Shown: positions 3,001 through 4,616 of the stretch, piece after piece
Layout of the letters: every line of letters begins with the position of its first letter
How positions within the stretch are numbered: the stretch's first letter is position 1
From: a virus
Lineage: Duplodnaviria; Heunggongvirae; Uroviricota; Caudoviricetes
Direction: 5' to 3' (one strand)
DNA length: 4,616 nt
Virus record (IMG/VR): IMGVR_UViG_2648501392_000005
Span: 1 to 4,616 of that record
Program-made: the position numbers

Positions 3001-4616
3001 ACACTGTTTGGCCCTGGCGAATTACCGGACGAATCTGAGAAAGATGCTCAGGCCTACTTTAATCGCAAATATGCACCGATTGACGAAAAGCTTATGGCGC
3101 TTCACAAGTGGTTTTGGGAACAAAGTGAAGCCGAGCGCGCCGCTGGCATTCGCATCAAAGGAGAGTGAGATGAACGGACAAATCTCAATTGTTCGACCGG
3201 GAGCATGTGACGATTGCGAGATACGAATGATTATTCGTCTGGCGAGGGGGAAAACAATAACTGCTCTCATTACTCCAGAAAATCTCGCATTAGCATTAAC
3301 CGGAAAGTCAGACCTGCCAGTAGAGCTAAAGCTGCGAAATGTTGAGATTAAGGTGAAATAGCTATGACCACTATTACCAAAGAACGCCTGCTGACAATCC
3401 AGCAGTGGCGCGAAACATACGGACCTGGTAGCAACGTTGTACTGCCAGCAGAAGAAGCGGAAGAACTGGCACGAATTGCACTGGCATCGCTTGAGGCAAA
3501 GCCGGTGGCGTGGAAGGTAACCTTCACGCAAATTGACCGTGAATATAACACGTTCACTGGTATGTATTCTGACAAAGCAGAAGTCGAACGGTGGGTGCGG
3601 CTGCATAAAGCATGTAATTTTCGGGCAGATATAACACCGCTTTATACCGCCCAGCCAGTGCCGGTAACTCCGGATGCCTGGATAAGCTGTAGTGAGCGAA
3701 TGCCAGAAATGGGAGAGCGACAATGCTATGTGTTAGCAGCTGACTTTAAAAACAACTACCCACCAAACATCCCCAACACTCAGGTCGGCGTATATGGCGA
3801 CTGGTTTAATGATGGCAATCCCACTTGGGATGACGGTGATGGCGAAGACCTGTATCTCAAAGAGGTAACCCACTGGATGCCGCTACCAGAACCGCCGCAG
3901 GAGGTTAACCGTGGCTAACCTGCAACTTGCCGTCAAAGGTGAATAACAATCCTCGCACTCGCGGAGATTTCTTTTATACGATATAGGGGAAAAGGTGTGG
4001 TTAACAATATTGCAAATCACTCTTCGTTTCCGGCTGTAACAATCGACAGCCAGATGCTGTTGAAAATGGTCAATGAAGCTCGCAAGTTATGTGGAGAGCC
4101 ATCAGTACGTAACAACAAATTCATCGAGAAAATTGAGGATGAATTGGAAGGCGAGACCTACACAAAAAGTGTAGGTCGGAAAAACGGGGCTGACATTGAT
4201 GTTATCTCCATGACTATCAAGCAGGCGCTTCGTGTTGCTGCTCGCGAATCTAAAGCAGTTCGCCGAACACTTGTAGACAAACTTGAAAGTATGCAGGAAG
4301 CGCACATTAAAAGCGGTAAATCAGCGAGTGGACTTGTTGAGTATCGTCAAGCGCGAACACTGAAAATGACGGTTGAAGCTGTTACCAATCTGTTCGATTT
4401 GATGCCAAATCTTGCGCCGGAAGCAAAGCAGACTGCTGCGGCAAGCATAATCAACCCGCTCGTTGGTTTTAATGCAATACCTCTTCCGGCAATAGAAGAG
4501 CATTACTACTCAGCAGGGGAGTGAACCGCCCCGGGTTTCCTGGAGAGTATTTTATCTGTGAACTCAGGCTGCCAGATCATCGTTTCCGATGGAAGCATAA
4601 TAAGCTTTTTCTGCTT

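What the first reader, a model, noticed from the sequence alone, without database searches (positions are those of the whole stretch)
3997..4524. GTG-started, AT-richer 175-aa gene set off by its own spacer
This is the only gene in the window preceded by a sizeable spacer (78 nt) rather than an overlapping or near-abutting junction. It uses a GTG start and its hand-counted GC is roughly 8–10 points below bet/exo. These traits are typical of a separately acquired moron. The N-terminus has a loose Rha/KilA-N-like pattern, which would suggest a DNA-binding regulator or antirepressor-type protein.
Basis: partly seen in the sequence, partly recalled or inferred. Interest (0 to 1): 0.55.

Follow-up and report, generated by a model that had tools for sequence, protein, structure and literature searches.

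The report
IS629-truncated phage antirepressor-like gene
The 175-codon reading frame is real, but it is the front three-quarters of a 240-codon prophage gene of the antirepressor type, cut off by an IS629 insertion whose first three bases (TGA) supply the stop codon; this is ordinary prophage decay, not a separately acquired gene.

Summary
The ORF 3997-4524 (GTG start, 175 aa, 78-nt leader) exists as described. Its end is not natural. The window is identical to intact E. coli prophage copies only up to base 4521. From 4522 to the window end it is the outermost 95 bases of IS629, so the stop codon TGA (4522-4524) belongs to the IS. The intact gene is 240 aa, and the insertion removes its whole C-terminal winged-helix domain.

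The retained N-terminal domain (residues 15-103) is 74% identical to a domain of the phage P1 antirepressor Ant1/Ant2. The family is PHROG 1726 ('anti-repressor'). Pfam Rha, KilA-N and AntA models do not hit the ORF.

The 'moron' reading is not supported:
- Two other spacers in the window are as long (76 and 98 nt).
- Another gene in the window also starts with GTG.
- GC (45.5%) is 6-7 points below bet/exo but no different from the other seven genes.
- No promoter-like site lies in the spacer.

The window is a whole 4.6-kb draft contig that ends in the IS repeat. The same junction occurs in two other assemblies, so the insertion is real. Verdict: a known kind of gene inactivated by a common IS. 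Low interest.

The parts
3919..3996 (+). 78-nt leader between the DUF551 gene stop and the GTG start. It carries a Shine-Dalgarno-like AGGGG at 3985-3989. No promoter, terminator or structured RNA was detected.
   Evidence: Length and sequence. No sigma-70-like site. Fold z-score -0.36. The leader travels with the gene in lambdoid prophages: homology starts at about 3912 in Stx phages and about 3940-3944 in other E. coli prophages that have different upstream genes.
3997..4521 (+). The 175 native codons (GTG start) of a gene that is 240 codons long when intact. This is the 5' remnant left by the IS insertion.
   Evidence: Base-for-base identical to the intact gene of E. coli O39:NM F8704-2 (WP_000247838.1, L001:4098-4820) up to 4521, then unrelated. 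Family length is 241-247 aa. The ORF covers PHROG 1726 profile positions 4-197 of 264, while the intact copy covers 4-264.
4039..4305 (+). N-terminal domain (residues 15-103, strand-helix-helix-hairpin-helix) shared with phage P1-type antirepressor Ant1/Ant2. No Pfam model covers it.
   Evidence: 74% identity to RCS47 Ant1 residues 115-203 (= Ant2 residues 32-120), E 4e-44. 75% identity to P1 ant1. It is the part shared by most of the 284 clusters found at 50% identity. AF2 secondary structure.
4333..4464 (+). Middle region, predicted as two long helices (residues 113-135 and 141-156). It is followed by a low-confidence linker that runs up to the truncation point.
   Evidence: AF2 model of the window protein, pLDDT 74-81 in the helices and below 50 for residues 168-175.
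4522..4524 (+). Stop codon TGA. These are the outermost three bases of the IS629 terminal inverted repeat, not part of the original gene.
   Evidence: The intact allele reads GGGGAG|GTCGCA (Glu-Val-Ala...), while the window reads GGGGAG|TGAACC. Window 4522 aligns with the first base of the annotated IS629 element of LC567824.1.
4522..4616 (-). One end of IS629 (IS3 family), with its transposase genes on the minus strand. It comprises the terminal inverted repeat and the last codons of orfB (4564-4616, stop codon at 4564-4566). It is cut off by the end of the contig.
   Evidence: 98.9% identity to IS629 copies in 174 phage records, several annotated as IS629 or IS629 OrfB. Offsets agree with the annotated mobile_element and OrfB in LC567824.1. 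Thousands of copies occur in E. coli genomes.

Best explanation
The ORF is the 5' remnant of a lambdoid-prophage accessory gene of the antirepressor type. IS629 inserted directly after codon 175, and its terminal TGA now ends the reading frame.

Shown here:
- The intact gene encodes about 240 aa with three parts. First, an N-terminal domain of about 90 aa that is also found in the P1 antirepressor Ant1/Ant2. Second, a two-helix middle segment. Third, a C-terminal winged helix-turn-helix domain.
- The insertion removes the last 65 residues, which is the whole winged-helix domain.
- The insertion also separates the gene from whatever lay downstream. In intact relatives that is AntA/AntB antirepressor genes, xis and int.

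Inferred:
- The intact protein acts as an antirepressor-type regulator of prophage induction. The likely mode is binding a CI-type repressor, as P1 Ant binds C1. It would be made from the leftward early (pL) transcript rather than from a promoter of its own.
- The truncated product in this strain is most likely inactive or impaired, because the lost domain is conserved throughout the family.
For: Truncation:
- Window 3900-4521 is 100% identical to intact prophage copies. Identity stops at 4521 in every one of 5,426 complete E. coli genomes.
- Window 4522-4616 is 98.9% identical to IS629 ends, and 4522 is the outermost base of an annotated IS629.
- The intact allele continues ...GE-VAEQLGVTANKIGRIANANNLKTEQYGKFF... 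to 240 aa.

The junction is real:
- The window is the entire contig JHRX01000095.1.
- The same junction, including the same single-base IS variant, is present in CYCQ01000117.1 and in a contig from SRR29759356.

Architecture:
- The lost 66-residue tail matches PHROG 1726 positions 196-264 (E 1.8e-32). It also matches, remotely, the Ant family phrog_130 (E 1.5e-5).
- Members only 42% identical keep the C-domain.

Antirepressor kinship:
- PHROG 1726 matches at E 2e-59.
- 74% identity to RCS47 Ant1 residues 115-203 and 75% to P1 ant1.
- 28 of 88 relatives that share the N-domain carry Pfam ANT/KilAC.
- Foldseek against viral models returns antirepressor, KilAC, KilA and Rha proteins at E 1e-8 to 1e-4.
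- The P1 Ant1/Ant2 complex is an experimentally known antirepressor (PMC8546580).

Genomic context:
- In lambdoid prophages the gene sits just upstream of AntA/AntB genes, xis and int.
- In the P22-like phage JEP4 it sits inside the immI region, between ant and mnt.
- In P1-type phages the domain lies in the immI operon.

No own promoter.
Against: - No member of this exact family (N-domain plus short winged helix) has been tested experimentally as far as I could find. The antirepressor function is inferred from a shared domain, from database names and from gene neighbourhood.
- It is not known which part of P1 Ant contacts the C1 repressor.
- The other end of the IS and the rest of the gene lie outside the contig. 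A simple insertion cannot therefore be told apart from an IS-mediated deletion or rearrangement.
- The consensus promoter scan is crude and cannot exclude a weak or non-sigma-70 promoter.
Confidence: 0.85

Rival explanations
1. One reading: a complete, independently acquired 'moron' with its own promoter in the 78-nt spacer, encoding a Rha/KilA-N-type DNA-binding regulator.
For: - The gene and roughly the last 55-85 nt of its leader recur behind different upstream genes in other prophages, so it is a mosaic module.
- GC is 6-7 points below bet/exo.
- Distant relatives give sub-threshold Phage_pRha hits within the homologous region.
Against: - The gene is not complete; IS629 supplies its stop codon.
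- No promoter-like site lies in the spacer, and no terminator follows the gene.
- GC and GC3 match seven of the nine neighbouring genes.
- Spacers of 76 and 98 nt occur elsewhere in the window, and the 98-nt one actually holds a terminator-like hairpin.
- Pfam Rha, KilA-N and AntA do not hit the ORF.
Confidence: 0.03
2. The junction with IS629 is an assembly artefact. The contig end would be a false join at a repeat, and the gene would be intact in the real genome.
For: - The window is a short draft contig that ends inside a highly repeated IS.
- No complete E. coli genome, species-representative genome, viral contig or JGI metagenome contig holds this junction.
Against: - Three separately deposited records (two GenBank assemblies and one SRA-run assembly) show the identical junction and the same IS single-base variant.
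- The break falls exactly at the outermost base of IS629. That is expected for a true insertion, not for a random mis-join.
- Contigs that stop a short way into a repeat are the normal outcome for a real IS insertion in short-read assemblies.
Confidence: 0.04
3. The truncated 175-aa protein is still active, for example as a stand-alone repressor-binding module or as a dominant-negative form. On this view the N-terminal Ant-type domain would be the functional core.
For: - The N-domain and the helical middle are complete and predicted to fold (pLDDT 75-86).
- The N-domain is the part conserved across 284 clusters and is combined with different C-terminal domains.
- The start codon and leader are untouched.
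Against: - The C-terminal domain is conserved in members down to 42% identity.
- The short 'family members' found appear to be fragments that stop within conserved sequence, not natural short forms.
- No natural stand-alone N-domain protein was verified here.
Confidence: 0.15
4. The intact family is a sequence-specific DNA-binding regulator rather than an antirepressor. It could be a transcription factor or a recombination-directionality-type factor acting through its MerR/Xis-like winged helix. The name 'antirepressor' would then be annotation by association only.
For: - Sub-threshold Pfam HTH_17 hits occur in 8 of 30 members.
- The gene lies near xis and int in lambdoid prophages.
Against: - The N-domain is shared at 74% identity with an experimentally characterised antirepressor.
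- The gene sits in the immI-type regions of P22-like and P1-like phages.
- KilAC-type C-domains are themselves typical of antirepressors.
Confidence: 0.25

Closest known systems
Phage P1 / RCS47 antirepressor Ant1/Ant2 (immI operon)
   Same: Residues 15-103 of the ORF are 74-75% identical to Ant1 residues 115-203. That places the domain near the N-terminus of Ant2, as it is here. Both proteins then have a C-terminal helix-turn-helix-type domain. Both are filed under antirepressor PHROGs.
   Different: - Ant1 carries a full Pfam ANT/KilAC domain at 231-333. The intact relative of this ORF has a shorter winged helix that is only remotely similar (phrog_130, E 1.5e-5), and the window copy has none.
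- There is no icd gene, no c4 antisense RNA and no in-frame double start here.
- The window gene sits in a lambdoid leftward operon, not in a P1 immI operon.
PHROG 1726 'anti-repressor' (for example WP_000247838.1 in E. coli prophages, 'KilA protein' of phage JEP4, 247-aa 'antirepressor protein' of Stx phages)
   Same: This is the ORF's own family. It is 100% identical to WP_000247838.1 over the first 175 codons and 94% to the JEP4 protein. The profile match is E 2e-59.
   Different: The window copy stops at profile position 197 of 264 because of the IS insertion. Intact members span the whole profile.
P22 Ant / AntA-AntB / Bro-N antirepressors, Rha (Phage_pRha) and KilA (KilA-N + KilAC)
   Same: - All share a two-module build: an N-terminal alpha/beta domain plus a C-terminal helix-turn-helix-like domain.
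- All share the same genomic neighbourhoods.
- Foldseek hits to such proteins reach E 1e-8 to 1e-4.
   Different: - No Pfam hit to AntA, Bro-N, Phage_pRha, KilA-N or P22_AR_C.
- hhalign probabilities are only 0.6-5.9% against single sequences of these families.
- BLASTP against antA and roi of phage 2851 shows no similarity.
IS629 insertions that truncate prophage genes in E. coli (for example antA of phage 2851, a regulatory gene of Stx2_499, an Ea22-like gene in strain C325)
   Same: The same element is involved. In phage 2851 the annotated antA reading frame likewise ends on the TGA at the IS tip.
   Different: The target gene and site differ. This particular junction was found only in three draft or SRA assemblies.

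Membership tests
PHROG 1726 (anti-repressor) | Significant match to the family profile | tested here: met
   E 2.2e-59, 202 bits. The intact allele gives E 1.9e-97.
PHROG 1726 (anti-repressor) | Full-length coverage of the profile, including the C-terminal domain | tested here: not met
   The ORF covers positions 4-197 of 264. Positions 196-264 correspond to the 66-residue tail removed by IS629.
P1-type antirepressor Ant1/Ant2 | Shared N-terminal (Ant2-proximal) domain | tested here: met
   74% identity over 89 residues, E 4e-44. 75% identity to P1 ant1.
P1-type antirepressor Ant1/Ant2 | Pfam ANT/KilAC C-terminal domain | tested here: not met
   No ANT hit in the ORF or in the intact allele. 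RCS47 Ant1 has it at 231-333. The lost tail gives only a remote phrog_130 match.
P1-type antirepressor Ant1/Ant2 | immI operon context (c4 RNA, icd, overlapping ant1/ant2 starts) | tested here: not met
   The window shows a lambdoid bet-exo...DUF551 context. Rfam finds no RNA family in the window.
P1-type antirepressor Ant1/Ant2 | Non-covalent binding and inactivation of the phage repressor | not testable with these tools
   Needs binding and induction assays. Known for P1 Ant from the literature.
Pfam Phage_pRha (Rha) | Profile match at or above the gathering score | tested here: not met
   No hit at E<=1 for the ORF. The best relative, P0254, scores 27.7 bits against a cut-off of 29.9, within the homologous region.
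Pfam KilA-N / APSES fold | Profile match or clear fold match | tested here: inconclusive
Pfam AntA/AntB | Profile match | tested here: not met
   No Pfam hit. hhalign of the N-domain profile against an AntA protein gives 75 aligned columns but only 5.9% probability.
Moron (independently expressed prophage add-on gene) | Own promoter upstream | tested here: not met
   No sigma-70-like site in 3919-3996. This is a consensus scan only, so the result is negative but weak.
Moron (independently expressed prophage add-on gene) | Own terminator downstream | tested here: not met
   The only terminator-like site downstream of the gene lies within the IS629 terminus itself (4531-4543).
Moron (independently expressed prophage add-on gene) | Base composition distinct from flanking genes | tested here: not met
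   GC is 45.5% against 43.8-51.0% for the seven non-bet/exo genes (p 0.08-1.0). Only bet and exo differ.
IS629 (IS3 family) | Terminal inverted repeat beginning TG..., identical to annotated IS629 ends | tested here: met
   98.9% identity over 95 nt. Window 4522 aligns with the first base of the annotated element in LC567824.1.
IS629 (IS3 family) | orfB 3' end at the expected offset from the terminus | tested here: met
   The offset is 42 nt in both the window and LC567824.1. The minus strand reads ...AEKAYYASIGNDDLAA-stop (sequence).
IS629 (IS3 family) | Complete 1,310-bp element flanked by a 3-4 bp target duplication | not testable with these tools
   The contig ends 95 nt into the element, so the other end is not in the window.

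The most novel reading that the evidence does not exclude
The roughly 90-residue N-terminal domain shared with P1 Ant1/Ant2 has no Pfam model. It may be the actual repressor-binding module of a large, modular class of antirepressors. If so, the IS-truncated 175-aa form, which keeps this domain intact with its native start, could still act in trans on resident prophage repressors, or could block the intact protein of a co-resident prophage. It would then be more than a dead remnant.
Probability: 0.12. Interest if true: 0.35.

Novelty: already known. Interest (0 to 1): 0.13.

Why it matters
It matters little beyond correct annotation.
- The ORF should be annotated as an IS629-disrupted pseudogene or fragment of an antirepressor-family gene, not as a complete regulator or a moron.
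- An apparently clean stop codon at the end of a draft contig can be supplied by an insertion sequence.
- The N-terminal domain of the classical P1 antirepressor is widespread in lambdoid and P22-like phages, yet no Pfam family covers it.
- In the source strain the insertion may also uncouple the leftward early operon from the downstream ant, xis and int genes. This could not be examined, because the contig ends.

Tried and rejected
- Pfam and NCBIfam scans of the ORF gave nothing. Pfam on the intact allele gave only HTH_31 at E 0.11.
- PDB sequence-profile searches with the full family and with the N-domain gave nothing meaningful.
- hhalign of an N-domain-only profile against single Roi, KilA, Bro-N Ant and AntA proteins gave probabilities of 0.6-5.9%. 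This is inconclusive, because single-sequence templates have little power. An earlier comparison using the untrimmed alignment scored highly only because many members carry KilAC, so I discarded it.
- A perfect LexA-box-like CTGT-N8-ACAG at 4034-4049 raised the idea of an SOS-controlled antirepressor. It lies inside the coding region, arises from the conserved Ile-Asp-Ser-Gln codons, and is not conserved in Stx-phage or JEP4 homologues. Matches to this motif (one mismatch allowed) are expected about 1.5 times by chance in a window of this size. Rejected.
- Possible hairpin or terminator in the leader: the fold is no better than shuffles (z -0.36).
- Exact-junction searches in species-representative genomes, viral contigs and JGI metagenomes found nothing.
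- The literature 'ant' of Stx phage phi24B is the P22-Ant-like neighbour gene, not this family.
- PADLOC gave no defence-system hit for the ORF.
- Rfam found no RNA family in the window.

Full report
**What is in the window.** The window is the leftward early arm of a lambdoid prophage. All genes lie on the + strand:
- bet (RecT family; cut by the window start, reaching to 769)
- exo (YqaJ family, 766-1446)
- DUF1317 (1437-1625)
- DUF1382 (1598-1789)
- a small hypothetical gene (1866-2081, using the RefSeq start)
- a TraR/DksA zinc-finger gene (2180-2401)
- an Ead/Ea22-like gene (2398-3168)
- a 63-aa gene (3170-3361)
- a DUF551 gene (3364-3918)
- the target ORF (3997-4524)

The best complete-genome match covers 1-4521 at 99.0% identity. 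In such intact relatives the gene is followed by AntA/AntB-type antirepressor genes, xis and int, with the chromosomal gene ybhC beyond int.

**Checking the observation.** The ORF, its GTG start, its 175 codons and the 78-nt upstream gap are all as described. The GTG start is credible for three reasons:
- It aligns codon-for-codon with the ATG of the Stx-phage homologue (GTG-GTT-AAC-AAT against ATG-ATT-AAC-AAT).
- RefSeq uses the same start in intact copies.
- An AGGGG lies 7 nt upstream of it.

The comparative claims do not hold:
- Gaps of 76 nt (1790-1865) and 98 nt (2082-2179) exist elsewhere in the window.
- The Ea22-like gene also starts with GTG.
- GC is 45.5%, against 51.8% for bet and 52.7% for exo. 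That is 6-7 points lower, with Fisher p 0.03 and 0.015.
- The ORF does not differ from any of the other seven genes, which range from 43.8% to 51.0% (p 0.08-1.0). Its GC3 of 0.42 lies in the middle of their range.

**The decisive feature: the ORF's end is not its own.**
- Searching 3900-4616 against 5,426 complete E. coli genomes gave 100%-identical matches that all stop at window base 4521. The last 95 bases matched thousands of places annotated as IS3-family transposase.
- Aligned with the intact gene of E. coli O39:NM F8704-2, the window is identical through ...GCAGGGGAG. After that the intact gene continues GTCGCAGAGCAG..., whereas the window continues TGAACCGCCCCGGG....
- The intact gene is 723 bp and encodes 240 aa (WP_000247838.1).
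- Window 4522-4616 is 98.9% identical to IS629 copies in 174 phage records.
- In LC567824.1, where IS629 is annotated as a 1,310-bp mobile element, window base 4522 aligns with the element's outermost base. The orfB stop codon lies at the same 42-nt offset in both.

All 175 codons are therefore native, and only the stop codon TGA (4522-4524) comes from the tip of the IS. The same thing is seen in phage 2851, where the annotated antA reading frame also ends on the TGA of an IS629 terminus.

**Is the junction real?**
- An exact-protein look-up showed that the window is the complete 4,616-bp contig JHRX01000095.1 of a draft E. coli assembly.
- The same 175-aa product is called on CYCQ01000117.1 (GenBank protein CTW90966.1, named 'antirepressor protein') and on a contig from SRR29759356.
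- All three show the identical junction and the same single-base variant in the IS end.
- A contig that stops a short way into a multicopy IS is the normal outcome for a true insertion in a short-read assembly.
- The junction is absent from all complete E. coli genomes, from species-representative genomes, and from the viral and JGI metagenome collections. It therefore seems confined to one lineage.
- The other IS end and the fate of the gene's tail cannot be seen, because the contig ends.

**What the gene is.**
- Pfam and NCBIfam give nothing for the ORF.
- PHROGs places it in phrog_1726 'anti-repressor' (E 2e-59), but it covers only profile positions 4-197 of 264. The intact allele covers 4-264 (E 2e-97).
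- Homologues are 241-247 aa long and occur in E. coli, Salmonella, Serratia, Morganella, Proteus and others.

An AlphaFold2 model of a 93%-identical intact relative (mean pLDDT 74.8) shows three parts:
- an N-terminal alpha/beta domain (residues 17-104)
- two long helices (115-158)
- after a linker, a compact helix-turn-helix domain with a beta-hairpin wing (175-236)

**The retained N-terminal domain.**
- A search of 1.8 billion cluster representatives found 284 clusters. Most share only residues 13-105 and carry different C-terminal halves.
- Of 88 such relatives, 28 carry Pfam ANT/KilAC, one carries ORF6N, and five give sub-threshold Phage_pRha hits inside the homologous region (best 27.7 bits against a cut-off of 29.9).
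- A profile search returned mainly 345-aa and 262-aa 'phage antirepressor Ant' proteins on contigs of about 95 kb.
- tblastn then identified these as Ant1/Ant2 of phage P1 and its relative RCS47.
- Residues 15-103 of the ORF are 74% identical to Ant1 residues 115-203 (E 4e-44). That corresponds to residues 32-120 of the in-frame shorter product Ant2.
- The Ant1/Ant2 complex is a known antirepressor of P1 (PMC8546580).
- Foldseek of the intact model against viral predicted structures returned antirepressor, KilAC, KilA, Rha and Bro-N proteins over their full lengths (E 1e-8 to 1e-4).

**Context and expression.**
- The family sits next to antirepressor loci in three phage types. It lies upstream of AntA/AntB genes, xis and int in lambdoid and Stx prophages. 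It lies between ant and mnt in the immI region of the P22-like phage JEP4. As a domain of Ant, it lies in the P1 immI operon.
- In lambdoid prophages the gene and part of its leader move as a unit. Homology to prophages with other upstream genes begins at about 3912 or 3940-3944.
- The leader has no promoter-like site, no unusual fold and no Rfam match.
- The most economical reading is co-transcription with the leftward early operon. This is an inference, not a demonstration.

**Mechanism, with shown and inferred steps.**

Shown:
- IS629 inserted after codon 175.
- Its TGA terminates the frame.
- The C-terminal winged-helix domain is gone.
- The remaining protein carries the Ant-type N-domain and the helical middle.

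Inferred:
- The intact protein is an antirepressor-type regulator that acts on a CI-type repressor, by analogy with P1 Ant and from its neighbourhood.
- The truncated product is inactive or impaired, because the lost domain is conserved throughout the family.

The main uncertainty is functional. No member with this exact architecture appears to have been tested. A purely DNA-binding role for the intact protein remains possible.

**Verdict.** This is a known kind of prophage gene disrupted by a very common insertion sequence. Interest is low.

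Noticed in passing
window 2082-2179 (hairpin 2102-2120): The 98-nt spacer before the TraR/DksA gene is the most AT-rich stretch examined (37.8% GC). It holds a good intrinsic-terminator-like hairpin, AGGGAGCTACAGGCTCCTT followed by TTTTATTATT. It looks more like a transcription-unit boundary than the spacer in the finding does.
   Followed up: partly
window 2398-3168 (residues 145-243 of the Ead/Ea22-like protein): The C-terminal half of the Ea22-like protein matches the PADLOC model 'DpdH' at E 1.6e-36. This is an unexpected link between a lambdoid ea-region gene and a model from a DNA-modification defence system. It may simply reflect how that model was built.
   Followed up: no
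window 1-769: The window (a whole draft contig) starts inside bet, so the ATG at 35 is an internal codon. Intact relatives have a 261-aa Bet that starts upstream. Both contig ends are therefore assembly breaks.
   Followed up: partly
window 4034-4049: A perfect CTGT-N8-ACAG (LexA-box core) lies inside codons 13-18 of the ORF. It is conserved only in near-identical copies, not in Stx-phage or JEP4 homologues, so it is probably a chance product of the conserved Ile-Asp-Ser-Gln codons.
   Followed up: yes
L006 (phage 2851, NC_049943.1) 2248-3095: An unrelated 'antA anti-repressor' gene in phage 2851 also ends exactly on the TGA at the tip of an IS629 copy. IS629-supplied stop codons in prophage regulatory genes are thus a recurring annotation trap.
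   Followed up: partly
L010 (ENA metagenome contig, 709 bp) 183-709: This metagenome contig carries the intact allele but ends 2 nt past the IS629 insertion point. That may be coincidence, or an assembly-graph branch where intact and IS-disrupted alleles coexist in the sample.
   Followed up: no
window 1800-2081: The mechanical ORF is 93 aa from an ATG at 1800. RefSeq and the contig's own gene call both start at 1866 (71 aa), which creates the 76-nt spacer. The true start was not examined.
   Followed up: no
cluster of the target protein: Other shortened versions of the same gene are common in databases: 221 aa in Shigella sonnei (41 contigs), and 197 aa in E. coli HS, where it is annotated 'putative membrane protein' (35 contigs). 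This suggests repeated decay or inconsistent start and stop calling for this gene.
   Followed up: no
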